64,000 nt of DNA. It comes from an uncultured Bacilli bacterium. GTDB taxonomy: Bacteria > Bacillota_I > Bacilli_A > RF39 > UBA660. Shown here in pieces: positions 45,910 to 60,438 of the stretch; the first letter of the stretch is position 1, and every line of letters starts with the position of its first letter. The notes beneath the pieces were generated by a model. That model saw nothing but the letters and a program-made list of their open reading frames with translations. It did not search any database and had not been told where the DNA came from. The translations under genes and the position numbers were made by a program. The stretch is from assembly GCA_947627805.1 (NCBI GenBank), contig CANQXB010000001.1, positions 24,836 to 88,835 on the forward strand, written 5' to 3'.

Positions 45910-46226
45910 TACTTTGTCCTATAATGACTAGACCAATATGCTTTAAAATCTTTTTCATCATCAAAATGTTCTTTAGTCCATTGCCAATTCTTAGCATCAT
46001 CATAATCTACTCGACAGCTATAATCACAAATATACCAACTACAATTCATCTTTCGATAAGCACTCCCATCTGGAATATCTTGAAACTTATCGCTTCGCCG
46101 CAATTTGCGATTAAAATGTTTTTTATACCAGGAGTCTTTTGCGCATTTCACAACCGGATTATGACGATATGACCGAGACATAATTAACCTCTTTCTGTGG
46201 CGGAAGTCCGAGGTAACGCTCCCCAT
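45909..46226 (-). CDS. hypothetical basic protein
   Basis: 105 aa, preceded by a GC-rich structured leader. Confidence 0.45.
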   Translation of the reverse strand: MGSVTSDFRHRKRLIMSRSYRHNPVVKCAKDSWYKKHFNRKLRRSDKFQDIPDGSAYRKMNCSWYICDYSCRVDYDDAKNWQWTKEHFDDEKDFKAYWSSHYRTK

Positions 46227-46289
46227 ACCTTGCGGTACTCACTGCTTTCGAGGCAGGACTAGAAACTTTTCTAGTTGAACTTCCACTTA

Positions 46290-46781
46290 TTAAACAATAG
46301 AGCACAAAATACGCACTTCTCCTGGATTAGGATAATAAATGCCATTCTCTTCTACAATAAAATTAATCTTAGACATAAAATTCTCTAATGCATTATATTG
46401 CGGATAATTTCCATCCTCATCAGGCTCAACATCATAATCAGTAACCATAACTTGATCAGTTTCCGCAAGCAGATTTAACTCAATATAATCATACCAAGTA
46501 GTTTGCGCGGCACTTCGCATAGAGACAGAGAACTCACCATCTTCATCATCTTCTTTGCTATCAAAATATTTGCTAGCAATAGGTCCAAGTTCTTTAGGAA
46601 GGCGTCGCCAGCTACCTTCAAACTTTTCAAACAGCAATTCAAACAACTCATAATCTGCATTACCAGTATCTAGCCACAAAGGCTCAAACTCGCCATCTTC
46701 ATTTTTAATATAAAAAGTTACATCTTCCCAAGAACCATCCTCATTACGCTTTTCAATAAAAAATCTAGGGGTGCGGCTCAT
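46290..46781 (-). CDS. acidic hypothetical protein
   Basis: Tracked ORF 46290..46808; likely start is ATG at 46781 behind RBS AAAGGAGAG, which avoids overlapping the tRNA. Confidence 0.5.
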   Translation of the reverse strand: MSRTPRFFIEKRNEDGSWEDVTFYIKNEDGEFEPLWLDTGNADYELFELLFEKFEGSWRRLPKELGPIASKYFDSKEDDEDGEFSVSMRSAAQTTWYDYIELNLLAETDQVMVTDYDVEPDEDGNYPQYNALENFMSKINFIVEENGIYYPNPGEVRILCSIV

Positions 46782-46800
46782 AGTAACTCTCCTTTTTTGT

Positions 46801-46895
46801 TGGTACACGCGGAGGGACTTGAACCCCCATCGTGCGCTAATCTGGCGCTTATCTCGGGTATAAACCGAGCGCTCTGCCCATTGAGCTACGCGTGC
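46801..46895 (-). tRNA. atypical 95-nt tRNA with a 24-nt variable arm and apparent anticodon UAU
   Basis: GCACGCG-TA-GCTC/AATGGGCA/GAGC-G-CTCGG/TTTATAC/CCGAG, then variable arm with GCGC/GCGC stem, then GGGGG/TTCAAGT/CCCTC-CGCGTGT-A-CCA; identity uncertain. Confidence 0.6.
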
Positions 46896-46954: not shown

Positions 46955-48145
46955 TTAAACTGCCTTAAAATTATAAATAGGAGTTAATTGCTCAGTTATA
47001 ACAAAACCATTACGAGTTAGGAGTTCTTCTAATGCTTTACTACTATTATATGTATTAGGAGCTTCATCTAATGTAGACTCAGTAACACAACTAGAATAAA
47101 TTCCATTCATTGATGCCTTATATGACTCTATTTGCAATAGTAGATGTGCGGCTGTACGTGACATTACACGACCAGCCCCATGCGGCAAACTATTATTCCA
47201 ATCTTCGTTCTCACACCCTTCGATAATAAGTAGTCCATCCCGCATATTTAACGGAACTAGACATCTCGCGTTTGTACAGTCGATAGCACCTTTTCGCACT
47301 ATATGATTATCTACATCAACGTAATTATGTAAACTTGTTGCAACTATAGAATAATTATAATAACCTATTAACATATTGGCCATAGCAATATGACTTACTA
47401 AAGACCAATTTGCACAAACTAACATATCATTTAAATAATCATCTAAATCATTACCTTCAATATAAGCTAAATCAGACTCTAAAGCATACTTTTCAATTTG
47501 TATTCCATGTAACATATCTAACATCTGGCTAATTAATTGTTCTTGATGCGTCTCTTTCCCATATGAAATAACAGCTTCCCGCATTGTTTTAAGTAGGTTA
47601 CCTTTACTTTTGGATTTTTCTACAGCAATTTTCTGATAAAAATTACAAACTTGTACTCCTAAATTGCGGGAACCACTATGTATAACAAGATAAACACGAC
47701 CATTGTCATCTACATCTAATTCGATATAGTGATTGCCTCCTCCAAGAGTGCCTTGAGAATTGATAATACGTTGATGATTACTAATATAATCCCAACACAT
47801 CAATTCATTATAATCAAAAGAAGAAACAGAATGATTATGAATATTTCTTCCTGTTGGAATAACAGAACGTACTTTTTTATCAAATTTATCTAAATCTGTC
47901 ATATCTTCTAAGAACCAAGGGGTTTCAAATAGCGATATGCGGCAACCAATATCAACTCCTACAGTATTAGGACAAATCTTATCACTAAATGTAGAGGTAA
48001 AACCAACACAAGACCCTTTACCCGCATGCGCATCTGGCATAATGCGGATTTTCTGGTCCACATACGCAGGACTTGCCGCAATTTCTGCAACCTGGTCTAA
48101 TAGTTTTTTGGTTTTATTTAAAGCAAAATTTTTAACATCAGTCAT
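46955..48145 (-). CDS. rtcB: RtcB RNA 3'-phosphate/2',3'-cyclic-phosphate ligase
   Basis: MPDAHAGKG, GVDIGC, GGGNHYIE and HSGSRNLG RtcB motifs; start moved to ATG 48145 behind RBS AGAAAGGGG. Confidence 0.8.
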   Translation of the reverse strand: MTDVKNFALNKTKKLLDQVAEIAASPAYVDQKIRIMPDAHAGKGSCVGFTSTFSDKICPNTVGVDIGCRISLFETPWFLEDMTDLDKFDKKVRSVIPTGRNIHNHSVSSFDYNELMCWDYISNHQRIINSQGTLGGGNHYIELDVDDNGRVYLVIHSGSRNLGVQVCNFYQKIAVEKSKSKGNLLKTMREAVISYGKETHQEQLISQMLDMLHGIQIEKYALESDLAYIEGNDLDDYLNDMLVCANWSLVSHIAMANMLIGYYNYSIVATSLHNYVDVDNHIVRKGAIDCTNARCLVPLNMRDGLLIIEGCENEDWNNSLPHGAGRVMSRTAAHLLLQIESYKASMNGIYSSCVTESTLDEAPNTYNSSKALEELLTRNGFVITEQLTPIYNFKAV

Positions 48146-48178
48146 AAAAAAAATCCCCTTTCTTAACAATATAAATAT

Positions 48179-48229: not shown

Positions 48230-49250
48230 GGTTAACGCCAAGACACTGCAAAACTTGGCGGATGTTAGCAGGCGGTGAGCCTATGATTCGTTTATATAAA
48301 CAGGCGGAGTACTTACTATCGACTATATGATCTTTCTCCGCGTCATATTTAACGTGTGACCAACCACGGTAAGCGTTTAATTTTTTTGACTGTTTATTTT
48401 ATTAATTATTAAATATAGATTTACAAAACTCTTAAACTGACTTTCGCCATACTCGCAAGCCCGCATAAATATTCAGCCACGTAGGAGATAAGTCTGACTC
48501 ATAAGGAGCGACCTTATAAGTTCTTACCCCGGCATCTTACCATATCTACGAGTGGATTGGTTACCACTAACTTTCACCCACCATTCAGAAATTGAATGGG
48601 ACTTTTTCCTCAAAAGCCAAATTAATTATTATTTAGTCTATTAATCTTCCTCAATTTGGGCTACTCGCTCTTTGAACTTTCCTTATAGTTAATTACTTAG
48701 CATCAACGAGGAAACTTACTTATTTGGATTCCCTAACGTACTATGAGGTTCCACCCTCATGCCTAATTAGGGTTCAAAGGTGCGCTGCACCCGCCTATTA
48801 CGCAAGCGGAAAGATAAAGCCTTTTTATACGAAACTCTTTTGAGCGCCATTCTCTTTTGTTGGAAGTTTCTTCCTTCTGCGACTTGGTTACCTGCTGCCG
48901 CAATGTCCGCCCACGATAAAAGTATCCTTTTATCGGACAGGCACTTAAGGGATGCCCCTGACCGCATGGTATTGCGCATGCACAAGGTTGTAAAGAGTTT
49001 TGTAAATCTATATTCAATTTTCAATTTACATTTTAGGTACCTTATTTTGTAAGGCACCTAATGTGGGGCATCTATTTTGTAGACGCCCCACGTAAATGAC
49101 TTAACATTAAGTCATATAAACTACTGCCCTATGATGTAGTTTACACCCAGCAACCCTCCGCTGCCCTGATAACCCTTCCCAGTAACCGATTGATTTGCAG
49201 AACGCAGGCTCAATCACATAGAACAGATCGTATGTTTAGTTTAAAGCCTT
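48230..49250 (-). ncRNA. candidate large structured non-coding RNA (about 1 kb), unclassified
   Basis: No ORF over about 95 aa on either strand; local GC far above the genome background; 12 or more strong hairpins (for example CCGATAAAAG-tatc-CTTTTATCGG, GTGGGGC...GCCCCAC, ATGACTTAA-cat-TTAAGTCAT, CCATTCA-gaaatt-GAATGG); two tandem consensus promoters directly upstream. Confidence 0.4.
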
Positions 49251-49257
49251 GATTTAT

Positions 49258-49286
49258 ATTATATCATTTTTTTATTTTATTGTCAA
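49258..49286 (-). promoter_or_regulatory. sigma-A-type promoter, TTGACA, 17 nt, TATAAT
   Basis: Minus-strand reading TTGACAataaaataaaaaaatgaTATAAT, facing the structured region. Confidence 0.5.
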
Positions 49287-49320
49287 AAGTTTTTTATTTT
49301 TCCTTTCTCTCTCCTTTTAT

Positions 49321-49349
49321 ATTATAACATATATTTTTCTATCTGTCTA
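49321..49349 (-). promoter_or_regulatory. sigma-A-type promoter, TAGACA, 17 nt, TATAAT with TGn
   Basis: Minus-strand reading TAGACAgatagaaaaatatatgtTATAAT. Confidence 0.5.
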
Positions 49350-49379
49350 GTAAAATTTTTAACTGTTTCTGGTCGCGAA

Positions 49380-49620
49380 GCCTAGGTGCTGCTCCTAGTT
49401 ACCCCAGCTTATGAGACTGGGTCAGATACTGACCTGCCGCCCGCATTTTGGTTGCTCCCGGTGGTTACGCTCCACCCGCACAATACTTATGAGGCATTGC
49501 TAGACACTAGTCAAGAGAGCAATGCATGTATCTTTACTCTTGAGTTCCTTACGCCAAGCTTGCGCCCAGCCGCGGACTCGAACCACGTCAAGCATCATTA
49601 ACATATTACTTTTACGTCTA
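49380..49620 (-). ncRNA. candidate structured ncRNA (about 240 nt) ending in a tRNA-like T-arm and acceptor 3' strand
   Basis: GC-rich hairpins (CCCAGC-ttatgaga-CTGGG, GGTCAG-atac-TGACC, GCATTGCT...AGCAATGC); 3' part CGTGG-TTCGAGT-CCGCG-GCTGGGC-G is a perfect T-arm plus acceptor 3' strand with no matching 5' acceptor strand; own promoter at 49740-49768. Confidence 0.45.
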
Positions 49621-49739
49621 AAAGTAAATTATAGTTAATTACTTTTGTAAAGATACATCTTTTCTACTTATAATAAGTAGAAAGTCTAATAAGAGATTCA
49701 CAACCCGTCGGCTTTTGTTATCTCCTTTCGATATTTATA

Positions 49740-49768
49740 TTATATCATAAAAATTTTTATCTGTCTAG
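49740..49768 (-). promoter_or_regulatory. sigma-A-type promoter, TAGACA, 17 nt, TATAAT with TGn
   Basis: Minus-strand reading TAGACAgataaaaatttttatgaTATAAT. Confidence 0.5.
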
Positions 49769-50249: not shown

Positions 50250-50541
50250 ATTTATTCCTTTCTTTTGGAATAAAAATTTTTTTCTGGTGGAGCTGCTGAC
50301 TTACGATAGCCAGGTCCTAACATACTAATTACTAAATCCTTAATATAATCTAAAAGATAAAATTAGTTAATAAATGTGCCTTTTAATGATTCTTCCTCGC
50401 ACGTAAAAGGCATCGGTGCGAGGTATAGGCTTATGCTGCCATTGCAAAATTAAATTTGTCAGTTAATTTTTTAAAGGTGATTACAGATTTAGCTTTCATA
50501 TCCTAGTCGAATCCTTTCAGCCCCTTTCTCATTATATTAAT

Positions 50542-55220: not shown

Positions 55221-55251
55221 AAATAAAAAAAGTGCGGAAACCCGCACTTTT
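55221..55251. terminator. bidirectional rho-independent terminator downstream of the Ro60-like gene
   Basis: AAAAAAA-GTGCGG-aaac-CCGCAC-TTTT. Confidence 0.65.
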
Positions 55252-56707
55252 AATAATGAATTGCTTGAATTACTTCTTCTAGTTTTAATCCTTGGTTTGC
55301 CTCCATATATGGGAACAATTTAAATACTTTATCATTTAGTGCGGTCATTAGATGAACATAAGGATTATTTGGATTAGCAATCTGTCCTTTGTAATTGCCT
55401 AAGTCAAAACTAAATATATCTGTACGACCATATTTTGTACAATAACGATTATAAGAATTAACAGTATTCTCACGACTATTATAATAATGGTCTTCCATTG
55501 TTTGCATATCACTAATAAGAAAGATGCGGTCAACTTTTTCATCTAATTGATTGAATGCTTTTGGAACATTAGTGCCATATCCTAGATTTTCTTCATCAAT
55601 CATATGTTCAATACTAACAAATGGATTAAATCTAATTGCATTTGTATCATAATTTTTCTTTTTAGCTGAAGTGCCAAATTTAATGAATACACTTTCAGGA
55701 TTTTGAATCAATAGAGTCGCCGCATATACTGCGCCAACTTCTTTAAGAGTAATAACACTCTTAGGTGACATGCGACAATCCATAGACCCAGATATATCAA
55801 GCATAATAGCTGTGCGGCCATCCAGCTGGGGAATATTTCCAACAGCCGCATAGAATGCTTGTTGAAGAGCATCAATTAAATTACCTGGCACAATATCTTT
55901 AATCTCACGATAAGCCGCATAAATTTGATATGGAAATACTAATGATTTATAGATTGCTATTTGATTACATACTTGGCCGCAAAGATATTTAGTAATCCAC
56001 TCTCTTGAAACTCCGCTTTGTAAAATATTGCGGAGATTGCGGATGAGCGCTAAATATCCAAGTTGCTTTTTCTCAACTAGATTTTGCCAAGCCTTACAAC
56101 GTTCTTCTTCTGACTGCTGTTGAGAAATATTACGTTCCCACGTATCAATTTCTGAATATTGTTCATATACAAACTTATCAATATGCGGGGAAGTTGCATG
56201 AGTAATTCTAATTAAATCATGCATATTATATTTTTTACCCTTTAGCTTATATTTTGCTAATTGGTAACCTGTTAACTGTGAGAGATAATCGCAAATACCT
56301 CGAACCACCGCATGAGATCTCTTTTGTCCCATCATCTCAATTGCCGCGAATAGTTCTGCCGCGTCATCAGGTCTATGCGGGAAGTGCGCATAGAACTGAC
56401 GTTTATTAGCAAATTGGAGGTCATTAAGATACGCCGCTACTAAAGTAGCCGCGCTCCGCATTCCAAGTTCATTACGAGCAAAGTAAGCGCCCTTTGCCGC
56501 AAATTCTGGCCCCTTAGTATCAATTACTTTTTGAGTCAGATCAAGGAAACGAGTTGTTTGTTCTGTTTCTGTTTCATAAAATTTATCTGAGAGGAAAGAT
56601 GAAAACATAAAATTAATCCAATCCTCTGTTGGATTTTTTTGATACAACTCTGCGCCCTCGTATGATATTGTTTTAGGTGCTTCTTGCTTCATATTAAATT
56701 TGGACAT
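55250..56707 (-). CDS. Ro60-like RNA-binding protein (TROVE domain plus C-terminal vWA domain with MIDAS motif)
   Basis: 485 aa; MIDAS LDISGSM with downstream GYGTNV and LISDMQT metal-site equivalents; N-terminal alpha-helical-repeat region consistent with TROVE; assignment from motif layout only. Confidence 0.55.
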   Translation of the reverse strand: MSKFNMKQEAPKTISYEGAELYQKNPTEDWINFMFSSFLSDKFYETETEQTTRFLDLTQKVIDTKGPEFAAKGAYFARNELGMRSAATLVAAYLNDLQFANKRQFYAHFPHRPDDAAELFAAIEMMGQKRSHAVVRGICDYLSQLTGYQLAKYKLKGKKYNMHDLIRITHATSPHIDKFVYEQYSEIDTWERNISQQQSEEERCKAWQNLVEKKQLGYLALIRNLRNILQSGVSREWITKYLCGQVCNQIAIYKSLVFPYQIYAAYREIKDIVPGNLIDALQQAFYAAVGNIPQLDGRTAIMLDISGSMDCRMSPKSVITLKEVGAVYAATLLIQNPESVFIKFGTSAKKKNYDTNAIRFNPFVSIEHMIDEENLGYGTNVPKAFNQLDEKVDRIFLISDMQTMEDHYYNSRENTVNSYNRYCTKYGRTDIFSFDLGNYKGQIANPNNPYVHLMTALNDKVFKLFPYMEANQGLKLEEVIQAIHY

Positions 56708-56965
56708 TATCTCTCCTTATATATCTCACGGGGAAATACTATAGAAGGTAATATGATAGCTTATCATGTCAGCTATGTTTTCCTTATTATATACTGAAGT
56801 AACCTTCTAACCATCACCCGCAACTTACATAAATGGGCACTATATTAATAATGCCCTTAGATAGAGAAAGGAAAAAAGGTACAAATAAGGACATACTTAA
56901 AAAAGTGTTTACATACCATCCTTTATATGAAGTAACTTTTTTACCATCACTTATTTGATATTTAT

Positions 56966-58598: not shown

Positions 58599-59423
58599 TC
58601 AATAGTACCTAGCGAAAATTTCATCATTCTCTACATAGGCAAAATCATCACATACACACCGCATCTGTGAGACTTCTTCATCGCCCCAATCTTCAAAGCT
58701 ATCTTTATGATAGTGGCCATGAATCCAAGGAATTTGCGGGAACTTGCGATAGACACCTTCTAGGATGCGCTGTCCCGCGGTTGTCGCATCGAAGGGCAGG
58801 TCATATTCTTTATTATAATTTAAAGAAATATGCGATGGTGCATCATGAGAAACAATTACATCTGGAGTAAAACTCATTGTTGCGAGAACCAATTTCACAC
58901 CTGTATAATCAACATCCTCATTTTCCCACCAAGAACGATGATTACACCGCACACTCTCAAAACGACTGCGGTAAAGATAATATCTCTCCATATCTTCTGG
59001 ATCACTAGGGTTGGCTGGCGTATGCCACAGGTCATGCGAAGCTGCACCAGGAATCAAAAAGAATTTTTGACCCGCAATTTCACCCGCCCATGGTCTATCT
59101 ATAATATAAATGTTATCAAAATACTCACCATACATTACGAATTGCCGCACAGGATAATTACCAAGATAGATACTATCCATAGCGCCATATGCATCTCGAT
59201 CATCATGGTTGCCGCACATTGCATAGATAGGATAACCAAGGTTATTTAGGAAGTGCGCATATCGCAATTCTCTTTGCATATCTTCAATTGTGTGGTCAGG
59301 AGAAAGAACTCCAAAAGGAATACCAAAGTCACCAGCAATGATTACCGCGTCAGCTTGATGTTTCTGCGGCCACTCCCGCAAAACTGGGCAGCCATGAATA
59401 TCGCCTGTAATGTAAACTGTCAT
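58599..59423 (-). CDS. calcineurin-like metallophosphoesterase (paralogue 3 of 3)
   Basis: GDIHGC...IAGDFG...CGNHDD motifs. Confidence 0.65.
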   Translation of the reverse strand: MTVYITGDIHGCPVLREWPQKHQADAVIIAGDFGIPFGVLSPDHTIEDMQRELRYAHFLNNLGYPIYAMCGNHDDRDAYGAMDSIYLGNYPVRQFVMYGEYFDNIYIIDRPWAGEIAGQKFFLIPGAASHDLWHTPANPSDPEDMERYYLYRSRFESVRCNHRSWWENEDVDYTGVKLVLATMSFTPDVIVSHDAPSHISLNYNKEYDLPFDATTAGQRILEGVYRKFPQIPWIHGHYHKDSFEDWGDEEVSQMRCVCDDFAYVENDEIFARYY

Positions 59424-59445
59424 TCTCTCTCCTTTCTTTTATTAT

Positions 59446-59474
59446 ATTATAACATTAAAAAATATTACTGTCTA
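59446..59474 (-). promoter_or_regulatory. sigma-A-type promoter, TAGACA, 17 nt, TATAAT with TGn
   Basis: Minus-strand reading TAGACAgtaatattttttaatgtTATAAT. Confidence 0.5.
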
Positions 59475-59493
59475 ATAGTTTTTTAGAATGCGG

Positions 59494-60438
59494 CTATCCT
59501 AGATTTATAAATGCACGAGCTGCCGCAAAGGTCTCTCGTTGAAGAGCTGCGAAATTAATAGTCGGGTTCTTCCATTTCTTACAAATGAGAGCTATTTCAT
59601 CAAGAACCGCATCTCTCCAAACCATTTGTAGGTACATTCCAATATGCTTATTTGTTTTAGTACTGAATTGTTCGTTAAGAGTATTCTCAATTTTTGCGAT
59701 AGCTTTCCCGCATTCTTCATCAGTGACACAATATTTGACAATCTCTTTTTCTGTCTCTCCTGCGGGAATTACTTTCTTGCTCTTGGATTTGTCTTGTCGA
59801 TACTGCGGCCGCACATATTTACCAATTTCATAGCGGCCATATTTATTAAGATAATCAAGTCGCCGCACAACCAAACCTTCTCCAATAGCGCCATTGAGCA
59901 TTAGGAAAGTATTTTTTTCAGCCTCAGCCGCAATATCTTGTGTCGTTGGATTTTCAAGAGTTTTAAATGGTACATAATAAGGATATTTTTCTTCTCCATA
60001 CATGTCCCAATAGACATCAAGAAGCTCTCGCCATTCCGCATCTTCTAGGTAGCGGCCTGTGGATGAATCATAAATATCAAACACCCACAAGTGTTCAAGT
60101 GCTAGAGTTGGATCATAAGATTTAATGCTTCCGATAAATTTGCGGGAACCGAGCCATTCTCCATATATAATATAGGAAGGATTATCTGTTAGCACTTGCC
60201 GCAAAACAACCTTTTCAGAAGTATTTACATTAGACCACCAGAGAGCAAAATCTGCGTTGTCTTTCTCTATAGTGATGGTGCGAGTGCGGGAGCCTGCGCA
60301 AAATTCGCCATCATTGAACCAGACACAAGAATTAGTGCCATCCAGCTTTGGAGAAATTGTGACAGTGCCATTGAGAAGTCCTTCTACATCAGGAGACTCC
60401 AGTTTTTCAACATGATTATATGAACGATAAGTAGTCAT
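59494..60438 (-). CDS. RNA ligase, Rnl2-like covalent nucleotidyltransferase
   Basis: Motif I SPKLDGTN, motif III YIIYGEWLGS, motif IV GEGLVVRRL, motif V region; no OB/DNA-ligase-type C-terminal domain. Confidence 0.55.
   Translation of the reverse strand: MTTYRSYNHVEKLESPDVEGLLNGTVTISPKLDGTNSCVWFNDGEFCAGSRTRTITIEKDNADFALWWSNVNTSEKVVLRQVLTDNPSYIIYGEWLGSRKFIGSIKSYDPTLALEHLWVFDIYDSSTGRYLEDAEWRELLDVYWDMYGEEKYPYYVPFKTLENPTTQDIAAEAEKNTFLMLNGAIGEGLVVRRLDYLNKYGRYEIGKYVRPQYRQDKSKSKKVIPAGETEKEIVKYCVTDEECGKAIAKIENTLNEQFSTKTNKHIGMYLQMVWRDAVLDEIALICKKWKNPTINFAALQRETFAAARAFINLG

What the first reader, a model, noticed from the sequence alone, without database searches (positions are those of the whole stretch)
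49380..49620. About 240-nt GC-rich element with a perfect tRNA-like T-arm and acceptor 3' strand but no 5' acceptor partner; possible Y-RNA-like or tRNA-mimic RNA
Seen in sequence: the minus strand reads ...CTTGA-CGTGG-TTCGAGT-CCGCG-GCTGGGC-G-CAAGC. That is a canonical T-stem and T-loop followed by a 7-nt acceptor-type 3' strand and a discriminator. Yet no D-arm or anticodon arm, nor the complementary GCCCAGC 5' strand, exists anywhere nearby. Upstream are stable hairpins (CCCAGC..CTGGG, GGTCAG..CTGACC, GCATTGCT..AGCAATGC), and the element has its own consensus promoter (49740-49768). Established knowledge: bacterial and phage Y RNAs (YrlA type) carry a tRNA-like T-arm and acceptor module fused to a Ro60-binding stem, and are encoded near rsr and rtcB in Salmonella. 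A Ro60-like gene and rtcB are both present in this window.
Basis: partly seen in the sequence, partly recalled or inferred. Interest (0 to 1): 0.8.

Follow-up and report, generated by a model that had tools for sequence, protein, structure and literature searches.

The report
Phage tRNA-mimic RNA plus two odd tRNAs
The flagged GC-rich stretch is three adjacent RNA genes in an uncultured phage: a circularly permuted tRNA mimic of the bacterial Y-RNA (YrlA) kind that has almost lost its D-arm, followed by two unusual methionine-type tRNAs that standard tRNA finders miss.

Summary
The T-arm and acceptor 3' strand are real (minus strand, 49587-49564). So are the promoter, the Ro60-like (TROVE) gene and rtcB. 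The claim of no 5' partner is wrong: GCUUGGC lies 4 nt downstream and closes a 7-bp, GCAA-capped acceptor hairpin. That is the T-arm-then-closed-acceptor order of YrlA-type Y RNAs.

The "240-nt element" is three genes:
- a ~210-nt RNA (about 49732-49522), made of a 5' AUCGAAAGG leader hairpin, a 12-bp closing stem, a long variable arm, the T-arm, the closed acceptor stem and a D-arm reduced to UAAGGAA;
- tRNA-like unit A (49521-49449);
- tRNA-like unit B (49445-49370).

A and B both have CAU anticodon loops, an encoded CCA and non-canonical T-loops.

Homologs of the ~210-nt RNA in two other phage lineages keep the fold with many compensatory changes. One lineage still has a D-arm hairpin.

A model of canonical YrlA domains does not recognise the window's copy. 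The clade's presumed Ro60-binding motif sits on two other RNAs next to the TROVE gene. Ro60 binding is therefore unproven.

Verdict: a new variant of a known kind, of moderate interest.

The parts
49739..49767 (-). sigma-70-type promoter (TAGACA, 17 nt, TG-TATAAT) of the transcription unit
   Evidence: 11 of 12 matches, extended -10. A promoter occupies the same position in L083 (same TAGACA type) and L092 (TTGACA..TATAAT).
49522..49732 (-). YrlA-like tRNA-mimic RNA, about 210 nt. The start is inferred 7 nt after the -10 box. The end is inferred at the 5' end of unit A.
   Evidence: Homologs in L083 and L092-L097. The ends are inferred, not measured.
49725..49732 (-). 5'-terminal AUCGAAAG, resembling the YrlA motif GNCGAAN0-1G
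   Evidence: Conserved as AUCGAA[A/G]GG at the predicted +1 in three lineages. Motif taken from PMC4201824 and PMC12135203.
49691..49726 (-). Leader hairpin P1 (AGGAGAU/AUCUCUU, inner AGCC/GGUU) capped by a GACG loop (49709-49706)
   Evidence: RNAalifold. L092 fold.
49664..49680 (-). Variable hairpin P2 (CUACUUA-UUA-UAAGUAG). Longer in L083 and absent in the L092 lineage.
49647..49658 (-). Closing stem P3, 5' strand (AUGUAUCUUUAC), the analog of the anticodon stem
   Evidence: Pairs with 49537-49526. 6 of 10 modelled pairs changed on both sides across lineages. L092 has CACACUC/GAGUGUG.
49590..49644 (-). Long variable arm (P4 plus P5) tipped by a hairpin with the conserved loop AGACGU (GACG at 49618-49615)
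49571..49587 (-). T-arm CGUGG-UUCGAGU-CCGCG
49553..49570 (-). Acceptor stem closed by a tetraloop: GCUGGGC-GCAA-GCUUGGC (7 bp, 3 G.U pairs)
   Evidence: The stem is 7 bp in all lineages. The loops are GCAA, GCUU, GCGU and GUGU.
49538..49552 (-). D-arm replacement loop G-UAAGGAA-CUCAAGA. It keeps the UA linker and GG but has no D stem.
   Evidence: Sequence read. L083 has GGA-UAGGUU-UCC and L092 has GUGGC-UUGGUU-GCCAU.
49526..49537 (-). Closing stem P3, 3' strand (GUAAAGAUACAU)
49449..49521 (-). tRNA-like unit A: 7-bp acceptor UGCUCUC/GGGAGCA, mini D-arm GAC-UAGU-GUC, anticodon loop CUCAUAA (CAU), T-loop AGCGUAA, A73, encoded CCA
   Evidence: Cloverleaf count (89% of cells paired, against 32-48% when slid; 12 of 22 pairs changed on both sides). 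Not called by ARAGORN or Rfam.
49370..49445 (-). tRNA-like unit B: acceptor UGCG-GGC/GCU-U-CGCG (7 bp plus a bulged U), anticodon loop CUCAUAA (CAU), T-loop AGCAGCA, A73, encoded CCA
   Evidence: Cloverleaf count (97.5% of cells paired, against 35-49% when slid; 12 of 20 pairs changed on both sides; six lineages). Not called by ARAGORN or Rfam.
55250..56707 (-). TROVE/Ro60-like gene (context) with a vWA MIDAS-type DVSGSM motif
56726..56959 (-). Two tandem Y-RNA-type modules in the TROVE leader (GUGAUGGU-N6-GUUACUUC with a 3' UUUCC strand). Neither has a tRNA-like domain. Coordinates are approximate.
46955..48169 (-). RtcB RNA ligase gene (context)

Best explanation
The flagged stretch is one promoter-driven unit holding three RNA genes.

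The first gene (about 49732-49522, minus strand) is a member of a small, previously unannotated phage RNA family with the circularly permuted tRNA topology of YrlA-type Y RNAs. A 12-bp closing stem stands in for the anticodon stem. It is followed by a long variable arm, a canonical T-arm, a 7-bp acceptor stem closed by a GCAA loop, and a D region reduced to a loop that keeps UA and GG. The T-arm and the closed acceptor stem can stack into the 12-bp acceptor/T minihelix that tRNA-handling enzymes recognise.

Inferred: the RNA acts as the tRNA-mimic (effector) module of the phage's Ro60, RtcB and RNA-ligase RNA-repair and quality-control island. Like the 7-bp-stem YrlA of M. smegmatis, it may be cut by RNase P in the acceptor loop and receive CCA. 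All four observed loops begin with G and three continue with C (GUGU in L093 is the exception), which fits a discriminator base plus the first C of CCA.

The other two genes (A and B) are tRNA(CAU)-type cloverleaves with an encoded CCA and altered T and D loops. RNase P cleavage at the 5' end of A would release the mimic's 3' end.

Shown: the sequence features, the fold, its conservation and covariation, and the gene context. Inferred: the transcript ends, processing, Ro60 partnership and function.
For: - Topology: the T-arm is followed directly by a perfect 7-bp GCAA-capped hairpin. None appeared in 300 shuffles, and neither strand has another partner.
- This order matches the published YrlA layout.
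- Homologs: L083 (TROVE 58% identical) and the L092-L097 lineage were found with model R1 at E 3e-7 to 7e-3.
- Covariation: 98.4% of cells pair and 19 of 42 pairs changed on both sides. No shuffle out of 500 reached this, and slid controls gave 34-44%. Window against L083 alone gave 100% paired with 7 pairs changed on both sides.
- Conservation: the RNA is 72-89% identical between the window and L083, against 56-63% for neighbouring coding DNA.
- D-arm series: 5 bp in L092, 3 bp in L083 and a loop only in the window, always after UA and containing GG.
- The 5' AUCGAA[A/G]GG is conserved at the predicted +1 in three lineages.
- Related TROVE phages carry about 20 canonical T|AS|D modules on the TROVE strand. 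In L041 such a module is followed directly by a B-type tRNA, as in the window.
- Context: TROVE, RtcB, RNA ligase, two metallophosphoesterases, tmRNA, ROOL and tRNAs.
- Units A and B.
Against: - The canonical-YrlA model R2 matches only the T-arm (10.1 bits, E 0.18). Ordinary tRNAs in the window score higher.
- Even the D-arm-bearing relatives reach only E 6e-4 to 0.07, and tandem-tRNA junctions score higher.
- The clade's conserved presumed Ro60-site motif (GUGAUGGU-N6-GUUACUUC with UUUCC) is absent from this RNA. It is present on two RNAs beside the TROVE gene.
- The closing stem is an uninterrupted helix without the bulged Ro-type site, and it is not formed by the RNA's 5' end.
- The gene lies 5.5 kb from TROVE, beyond the roughly 4 kb seen for YrlA.
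- The 5' motif is only 7 of 8 (A in place of G), and UAUAAUAUAAAUAUC is shared by other promoters of this phage.
- Only three lineages are known, and the pair counts rest on a model-fitted alignment.
- There are no expression or binding data.
Confidence: 0.5

Rival explanations
1. A tRNA mimic that works independently of Ro60. It could be a decoy or competitor for tRNA-recognising factors, such as host anticodon nucleases, RNase P, the CCA-adding enzyme or modification enzymes. It could also be a tRNA-like processing signal within the phage's tRNA operon. Its resemblance to YrlA would then reflect common descent from tRNA rather than shared function.
For: - The clade's Ro60-type motif is on other RNAs and not on this one.
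- The RNA sits inside the tRNA/tmRNA array, 5.5 kb from TROVE.
- Its neighbours differ between lineages: two tRNAs in the window, an ORF in L083 and a terminator-like hairpin in L092.
- The 7-bp acceptor stem plus 5-bp T stem is the minimal RNase P substrate geometry.
- The canonical-YrlA profile fails.
Against: - The CGAA-type 5' motif is conserved.
- Both lineages with enough sequence (the window and L083) encode TROVE on the same strand.
- Canonical YrlA modules in related TROVE phages show that this topology is tied to Ro60 in this phage group.
Confidence: 0.3
2. A decaying, non-functional remnant of a YrlA or tRNA gene.
For: The D stem is lost in the window. C56 of the T-loop is U in L083. 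The canonical profile fails.
Against: All 42 modelled pairs are kept in the window and L083, with 7 pairs changed on both sides and 7 on one side. 19 of 42 pairs covary across three lineages. The RNA is more conserved than flanking genes. Each lineage has a consensus promoter in the same position.
Confidence: 0.05
3. A permuted tRNA gene, or a two-piece tmRNA-like gene, whose halves are rejoined or trimmed (for example by RtcB) into a functional adaptor.
For: The 3' half of the tRNA precedes the 5' half. RtcB and a second RNA ligase are encoded nearby. The acceptor stem is 7 bp and the loop starts with G, usually followed by C.
Against: - There is no anticodon loop. The closing stem is continuous with a structured leader and with unit A.
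- The D arm is missing in the window.
- There are no hits to any tmRNA family at E<=10, and a standard tmRNA gene lies at 50285-50524.
- The third acceptor pair is U.G rather than the G3.U70 of tmRNA and tRNA-Ala (read from the sequence).
- No CCA follows the acceptor 3' strand.
Confidence: 0.03
4. A leader peptide or attenuator. A short ORF in the 5' leader runs into the closing stem and would control folding or downstream tRNA expression.
For: The window (GUG at 49701, 20 codons) and L083 (AUG, 27 codons) have an ORF in the same frame, ending at the same aligned stop (read).
Against: In the third lineage the aligned start position is CUG, and a different, non-homologous short frame is open. 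The Shine-Dalgarno-like GGAG lies 21 nt upstream and is paired in P1. The middle of the peptide is not conserved.
Confidence: 0.02

Closest known systems
YrlA (Y RNA-like A) of bacteria and mycobacteriophages (Chen et al. 2014, PMC4201824; structure PDB 6CU1, bioRxiv 10.1101/312249)
   Same: - The module order is the same: 5' strand, variable arm, T stem-loop, loop-closed acceptor stem, D region, 3' strand.
- It has a canonical T-loop and a UA linker plus GG after the acceptor stem.
- It has a CGAA-type motif at the 5' end.
- It lies on the same strand as a Ro60 gene and close to RtcB and tRNAs.
- Its acceptor stem is 7 bp, as in M. smegmatis YrlA, which RNase P cleaves.
   Different: - The D stem is lost in the window (3 bp in L083, 5 bp in L092).
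- The variable arm is very long (about 55 nt) and carries a conserved AGACGU loop.
- An extra 5' leader hairpin carries the CGAA motif, so the closing stem is not formed by the RNA's 5' end and has no bulged Ro-type site.
- It lies 5.5 kb from the Ro60 gene.
- It is not recognised by a profile of canonical YrlA domains.
Canonical YrlA-type modules of related TROVE phages (for example L035 9876, L056 9844, L041 20225)
   Same: Same phage group and same strand as TROVE. A T-arm is followed at once by a hairpin-closed acceptor stem, often with a tetraloop. In L041 the module is followed directly by a B-type tRNA(CAU).
   Different: These have a textbook D-arm (UAGCUCAGUUGGUAGAGC), a 5-nt variable loop, and the GUGAUGGUA-N6-GUUACUUC with UUUCC stem. 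Most lie 100-600 nt upstream of TROVE.
YrlB, and phage phiLo Yrl1/Yrl2 (Y RNAs without a full tRNA-like domain; PMC12135203)
   Same: Phage-encoded RNAs near a Ro60 gene, identified through the CGAA motif. phiLo Ro60 with Yrl binds host PNPase.
   Different: These resemble the window's two TROVE-leader RNAs more than the flagged RNA, which is dominated by the tRNA-like domain.
Two-piece (permuted) tmRNA
   Same: The gene is permuted, with the T-arm and acceptor 3' strand placed ahead of the acceptor 5' strand.
   Different: There is no CCA after the acceptor strand, no G3.U70, no tag reading frame and no Rfam tmRNA hit. The phage has its own one-piece tmRNA.
Elongator, initiator and Ile2 tRNA(CAU) (for units A and B)
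   Same: Cloverleaf fold, 7-nt CUCAUAA anticodon loop, A73 and an encoded CCA.
   Different: The T-loops are AGCGUAA and AGCAGCA instead of UUCRANY. The D-loops lack GG. Unit B has a bulged U in the acceptor stem and a U1.G72 pair. ARAGORN and the Rfam tRNA model miss both.

Membership tests
YrlA-type Y RNA | Conserved tRNA-like T stem-loop | tested here: met
   CGUGG-UUCGAGU-CCGCG at 49587-49571. Kept in three lineages.
YrlA-type Y RNA | Stem-loop directly after the T arm that corresponds to a loop-closed acceptor stem (AS) | tested here: met
   GCUGGGC-GCAA-GCUUGGC at 49570-49553. 0 of 300 shuffles gave such a feature. 4 of 7 pairs changed on both sides. No alternative partners.
YrlA-type Y RNA | Conserved D stem-loop after a UA linker, with the two D-loop guanines | tested here: not met
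   The window has only G-UAAGGAA-C, with UA and GG present but no stem. Homologs keep a 3-bp stem (L083) or a 5-bp stem (L092) with loop U[A/U]GGUU.
YrlA-type Y RNA | GNCGAAN0-1G motif near the 5' end (presumed Rsr/Ro60 contact) | tested here: inconclusive
   AUCGAAAG at the predicted +1 to +8 matches 7 of 8 positions and is conserved in three lineages. It is short, and the preceding AUAUC is shared by other promoters of this phage.
YrlA-type Y RNA | Long stem formed by the 5' and 3' ends that carries the Ro60 site | tested here: not met
   The 12-bp closing stem (49658-47 with 49537-26) is internal, because a 75-nt leader precedes it. It is uninterrupted. The clade motif GUGAUGGU-N6-GUUACUUC is absent from it.
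YrlA-type Y RNA | Encoded within about 4 kb of the Ro60 gene on the same strand | tested here: inconclusive
   It is on the same strand, but 5.5 kb downstream of the TROVE stop codon. L083 has the same order, with the RNA about 4.2 kb downstream.
YrlA-type Y RNA | Match to a covariance model of bona fide YrlA tRNA-like domains | tested here: not met
   Model R2 (20 canonical phage modules) matches the T-arm only, at 10.1 bits and E 0.18. The L095 and L092 homologs match full-length at E 6e-4 to 0.014, but tandem tRNAs score higher.
YrlA-type Y RNA | Binds Ro60/Rsr; modified by TruB and DusA | not testable with these tools
   Needs co-immunoprecipitation or EMSA, and modification mapping.
Rfam families (all 4227) | Any match at E<=10 | tested here: not met
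   No hit on 49360-49740 or on the L092 homolog. Rfam also fails on canonical YrlA modules, so this result is uninformative for YrlA.
Ordinary or intron-containing tRNA, or truncated tRNA pseudogene (T-arm module) | A 5' acceptor strand, D arm and anticodon arm upstream of the T arm | tested here: not met
   No complementary 7-mer (G.U pairs allowed) in 313 nt upstream. No ARAGORN or Rfam tRNA hit. Conservation and covariation argue against a pseudogene.
Two-piece (permuted) tmRNA | CCA after the acceptor 3' strand, G3.U70, tag ORF, tmRNA-family match | tested here: not met
   No CCA, and the third pair is U.G. No tmRNA-clan hit at E<=10. A one-piece tmRNA lies at 50285-50524.
tRNA (units A and B) | Cloverleaf with a 7-bp acceptor stem, 7-nt anticodon loop, 5-bp T stem, discriminator base and CCA | tested here: met
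   Unit B: 97.5% of cells paired and 12 of 20 pairs changed on both sides. Unit A: 89% paired and 12 of 22. CUCAUAA or UUCAUAA loops. ACCA ends.
tRNA (units A and B) | Canonical T-loop (UUCRANY) and D-loop GG; detection by ARAGORN or Rfam RF00005 | tested here: not met
   T-loops are AGCGUAA and AGCAGCA, and the D-loops lack GG. Not called. Copies of B with a canonical T-loop (L032, L041) are called tRNA-Met.

The most novel reading that the evidence does not exclude
In this phage lineage the two halves of a Y RNA may have been split between separate molecules. The Ro60-binding stems would stay beside the Ro60 gene. The tRNA-like effector domain would have become a free-standing RNA. That RNA would be cut by RNase P in its GCAA loop and given a CCA tail, yielding a two-piece, D-armless tRNA mimic held together by its closing stem and acceptor stem. 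Together with the co-transcribed tRNA(CAU) genes that have altered T and D loops, it would serve as a decoy or spare part against host tRNA-targeting defences, serviced by the phage's RtcB and RNA ligase.
Probability: 0.1. Interest if true: 0.8.

Novelty: new variant of a known kind. Interest (0 to 1): 0.5.

Why it matters
Y RNAs of the YrlA kind are thought to need an intact tRNA elbow (D and T loops) to recruit a still-unknown effector. This phage family shows the D stem at three lengths, 5 bp, 3 bp and a bare loop, while the T-arm, the 7-bp closed acceptor stem and the closing stem stay under clear selection. It therefore points to which parts of the mimic matter. The family also sits apart from the RNAs that carry the clade's presumed Ro60 site, so one can ask whether tRNA mimicry and Ro60 binding can be separated.

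In practice, two covarying tRNA(CAU) genes here, and further tRNA-shaped candidates in related phages, carry an AGCGU[U/A]A-type T-loop and are invisible to ARAGORN and Rfam. Phage tRNA repertoires are therefore probably being under-counted.

Tried and rejected
- **Rfam:** the gathering-threshold scan and the E<=10 scan gave nothing on the element or on the L092 homolog. Rfam is also blind to canonical YrlA modules.
- **Deposited phages:** blastn of the region found no match. TROVE relatives there are at most 29% identical.
- **RtcB-anchored searches:** the search of IMG/VR and the exact-protein look-up found nothing.
- **Exact DNA patterns:** the T-arm/acceptor pattern and the leader pattern found nothing in IMG/VR. 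The AGACGU-hairpin pattern gave one chance hit inside a coding region, L086. The leader pattern found nothing in JGI metagenomes. In GTDB genomes it found only the contig already held, from a MAG titled 'uncultured Bacilli bacterium'.
- **Core model R1:** it found nothing in 77 IMG/VR TROVE loci. Homologs came only through the adjacent 99-aa ORF used as an anchor.
- **Type 2 modules in other loci (T-arm, hairpin, 3-bp D stem):** considered as distant relatives. The L030 case overlaps a sub-threshold full-length tRNA match, so the class was set aside as heterogeneous.
- **MAFFT plus RNAalifold on six sequences:** this misaligned the closing stem, whose sequence has turned over completely. A model-guided alignment was used instead.
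- **Hypotheses rejected:** small leader ORF, permuted tmRNA, permuted tRNA and pseudogene. The reasons are given under the rival explanations.
Full report
**1. What is in the sequence**

All features lie on the minus strand. The next bases are GCAA-GCUUGGC. GCUUGGC pairs with GCUGGGC over all 7 positions, three of them G.U. The "missing" 5' acceptor strand is therefore present, 4 nt downstream, and it closes the acceptor stem into a tetraloop hairpin.

ViennaRNA predicts this hairpin in both the MFE and the centroid structures, with a z-score of -4.0 for the whole region. A scan for a T-arm followed at once by a perfect 7-bp hairpin finds one case in the window and none in 300 dinucleotide shuffles. 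Neither acceptor strand has another possible partner within 250-310 nt, even when G.U pairs are allowed.

The promoter is confirmed: TAGACA, 17 nt, TG-TATAAT at 49767-49739, with 11 of 12 matches. RtcB (46955-48169) and a TROVE/Ro60-like protein (55250-56707) are confirmed on the same strand.

The neighbourhood also holds:
- ROOL (48418-49011), a one-piece tmRNA (50285-50524) and three ordinary tRNAs;
- an RNA ligase and two metallophosphoesterases;
- a phage replication module.

**2. The "240-nt element" is three genes**

Unit A (49521-49449) reads UGCUCUC UU GAC-UAGU-GUC U GCAAUGC-CUCAUAA-GUAUUGU GCG GGUGG-AGCGUAA-CCACC GGGAGCA A CCA.

Unit B (49445-49370) reads UGCGGGC GG CAG-GUCAGUAU-CUG A CCCAGU-CUCAUAA-GCUGGG GUAA CUAGG-AGCAGCA-CCUAG GCU-U-CGCG A CCA.

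Both have a CAU anticodon in a standard 7-nt loop, A73 and an encoded CCA.

| Unit | Lineages compared | Cells paired | Paired when partners slid | Pairs changed on both sides | Shuffles reaching this |
|---|---|---|---|---|---|
| B | 6 | 97.5% | 35-49% | 12 of 20 | 0 of 500 |
| A | 5 | 89% | 32-48% | 12 of 22 | 0 of 500 on four of five measures (1 of 500 on the fifth) |

ARAGORN and the Rfam tRNA model miss both units. Their T-loops (AGCGUAA, AGCAGCA) and D-loops are non-canonical. Copies of B that kept UUCGAUU (L032, L041) are called tRNA-Met.

In L083, an ORF and a tRNA-Ile separate the T-arm RNA from A and B. The three units are therefore independent genes that happen to abut in the window.

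**3. The T-arm RNA is a conserved, structured RNA**

A homolog exists in a phage whose TROVE protein is 58% identical (L081, L082 and L083, which are identical to one another here). It has the same TAGACA-type promoter, an identical 5' end (AUAUCGAAAGGAGAUAA), a conserved hairpin with loop AGACGU, and compensatory changes in every helix. All 84 cells pair. Seven pairs changed on both sides and seven on one side, against 38-46% paired when slid. The RNA is 72% (core) to 89% (leader) identical between the two phages. The TROVE gene is 63% identical and the next ORF 56%.

Model R1, built from these two sequences, found nothing in 77 IMG/VR TROVE loci. The small ORF beside the RNA (59% identical between the two phages) then served as an anchor. 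It led to identical copies from the window's own phage (L088-L091) and to a third lineage, L092, L093, L095, L096 and L097.

In the third lineage, R1 scored 19.5-37.3 bits (E 3e-7 to 7e-3). The RNA again starts at the predicted +1 with AUCGAA[A/G]GGA. The closing stem has a wholly different sequence (CACACUC/GAGUGUG). The AGACGU loop, the T-arm and a 7-bp closed acceptor stem are all kept.

On the model-guided alignment of five distinct sequences, 98.4% of cells pair and 19 of 42 pairs changed on both sides. No shuffle out of 500 reached this, and slid controls gave 34-44%. The caveat is that this alignment was fitted to the model.

**4. Anatomy**

From 5' to 3' the RNA contains:
- AUCGAAAG at the 5' end;
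- leader hairpin P1, capped by GACG;
- variable hairpin P2;
- closing stem P3, 12 bp;
- a long arm (P4 plus P5), capped by AGACGU;
- the T-arm;
- the closed acceptor stem, 7 bp;
- the D region;
- the P3 3' strand.

This is the order published for YrlA: 5' strand, V, T, AS, D, 3' strand. [quoted passage not shown]

The D region forms a series across the lineages:

| Lineage | D region after the UA linker | D stem |
|---|---|---|
| L092 | GUGGC-UUGGUU-GCCAU | 5 bp, predicted even from the single sequence |
| L083 | GGA-UAGGUU-UCC | 3 bp |
| Window | G-UAAGGAA-C | none |

The UA linker and the GG are among the YrlA core nucleotides that build the tRNA elbow. They persist in all three lineages.

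**5. Tests of YrlA membership**

Met: the T stem-loop and the closed acceptor stem.

Not met in the window:
- the D stem;
- a terminal stem carrying a Ro60-type site;
- a match to a model of 20 canonical phage YrlA domains. R2 matched the T-arm only, at 10.1 bits and E 0.18.

Inconclusive:
- the 5' motif, at 7 of 8 positions of GNCGAAN0-1G;
- the distance to the Ro60 gene, 5.5 kb on the same strand.

R2 aligns the D-arm-bearing relatives full-length, but only marginally (E 6e-4 to 0.07). Tandem-tRNA junctions score higher, which is the false-positive type noted by Chen et al.. Rfam flags neither this RNA nor the canonical modules, so its silence carries no weight.

**6. Where the clade's presumed Ro60 site is**

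Canonical YrlA modules of related TROVE phages share a 5' GUGAUGGUA-N6-GUUACUUC and a 3' UUUCC strand. In the window this motif occurs only in the TROVE leader, twice (GUUACUUC at 56936-29 and 56803-796), on two RNAs with no tRNA-like domain. The same arrangement is conserved in L079 and L083.

In this lineage, then, the presumed Ro60-binding stems and the tRNA-like domain lie on different RNAs. This is the main reason why Ro60 partnership of the flagged RNA stays an inference. A Ro60-independent tRNA mimic is a serious rival.

**7. Likely mechanism**

Shown: a promoter-driven, conserved RNA with a permuted tRNA-like fold, lying in an RNA-repair island.

Inferred:
- The 5-bp T stem stacks on the 7-bp closed acceptor stem to present the acceptor/T minihelix, with UA and GG docking on the T-loop.
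- tRNA-binding factors recognise this surface.
- Because the acceptor stem is exactly 7 bp in all lineages, RNase P may cleave before GCUUGGC, after which CCA would be completed. This happens in M. smegmatis YrlA. The loops are GCAA, GCUU, GCGU and GUGU. All begin with G and three of the four continue with C.
- In the window, RNase P cleavage at the 5' end of unit A would also define the mimic's 3' end.

Other readings were examined and given low weight: pseudogene, permuted tRNA or tmRNA, and leader peptide. The leader ORF shared by the window and L083 is not conserved in the third lineage.

**8. Source, novelty and verdict**

The phage is uncultured. One contig was binned with an "uncultured Bacilli bacterium" MAG whose isolate name begins "Lapin". 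TROVE proteins of deposited phages are at most 29% identical.

YrlA RNAs, including phage ones, have been known since 2014. This is a new, divergent variant of that kind: D-arm loss, a long variable arm with paired GACG loops, and separation from the Ro60 gene. It is not a new category. Interest is moderate.

Noticed in passing
window 56726-56959 (-): Two tandem Y-RNA-type modules lie in the leader of the TROVE gene, behind a TTGACA..TATAAT promoter. Each has GUGAUGGU-N6-GUUACUUC and a 3' UUUCC strand but no tRNA-like domain. They are conserved in L079 and L083 and resemble YrlB-type RNAs.
   Followed up: partly
window 49449-49521 (-); L029 18427-18506; L033 13187-13266 and 13931-14010; L035 17369-17448; L037 17942-18021 and 20152-20231; L041 20598-20677; L043 17103-17182: tRNA-shaped sequences ending in CCA carry the T-loop AGCGU[U/A]A instead of UUCRANY. 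By eye their anticodon loops read GUU, GUA, GCA, CAU, UAU and UGU. Only unit A was tested for covariation. In unit B, loss of the canonical T-loop goes with loss of the D-loop GG (L037 keeps both).
   Followed up: partly
window 49011-49349 (-): Two further strong promoters (49349-49321 and 49286-49258, the latter 12 of 12) drive about 240 nt of hairpin-rich, partly GC-rich sequence that runs into the 5' end of ROOL. It is either an unannotated RNA or a long ROOL leader. No Rfam hit.
   Followed up: no
window 49706-49709 and 49615-49618 (-): The leader hairpin and the variable-arm hairpin of the tRNA-mimic RNA are both capped by GACG (C-GACG-G and A-GACG-U). Both loops are conserved in most copies of all three lineages (the V-arm loop is deleted in L097). 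This could be a paired protein-binding or tertiary-contact motif.
   Followed up: no
window 49728-49732 with 49577-49581 (-): The 5'-terminal AUCGA is complementary to the T-loop UCGAU/UCGAG. RNAalifold paired them in the six-sequence alignment. This may only reflect the UCGA palindrome, but the same relation holds between the YrlA CGAA motif and T-loops in general.
   Followed up: no
window 48418-49011, 50285-50524, 46955-48169, 58599-60438 (-): A dense RNA island: ROOL (324.7 bits) about 250 nt upstream of rtcB, a short 240-nt tmRNA with a perfect promoter, and an RNA ligase (PF09414) plus a metallophosphoesterase just upstream of the TROVE gene. The co-location of ROOL with Ro60 and RtcB may be worth a survey.
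   Followed up: no
L015 19479, L002 20273, L035 16192, L049 19661: T-arms are followed at once by a 7-9 bp closed hairpin and then UG plus a 3-bp stem with a purine-rich loop containing GG. They sit inside larger GC-rich RNAs 6-10 kb downstream of TROVE. No Rfam or tRNA hit in L015. A similar case in L030 overlaps a weak tRNA match, so the class is heterogeneous.
   Followed up: partly
L041 20170-20400: A canonical YrlA module (with GUGAUGG...GUUACUUC, T, AS and D) lies 10 kb downstream of TROVE and is followed within about 10 nt by a B-type tRNA-Met. This matches the Y-RNA-then-tRNA(CAU) layout of the window.
   Followed up: partly
window 46801-46895 (-): A tRNA-Ile(UAU) carries a 21-nt insertion between the anticodon stem and the T-arm (a long variable arm or insert). 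It overlaps the start of ORF 46290-46808.
   Followed up: no
window about 46198-46277 (-): A possible further tRNA-like 3' half (UGGGG-AGCGUUA-CCUCG GACUUCC G CCA). No clear 5' acceptor partner was found by eye.
   Followed up: no
L083 8768-8839: Between units A and B, the related phage has an extra structured piece ending in a 7-bp minihelix, GGCGGGG-ACAUUUU-CCCCGCC-A. Its nature is unknown.
   Followed up: no
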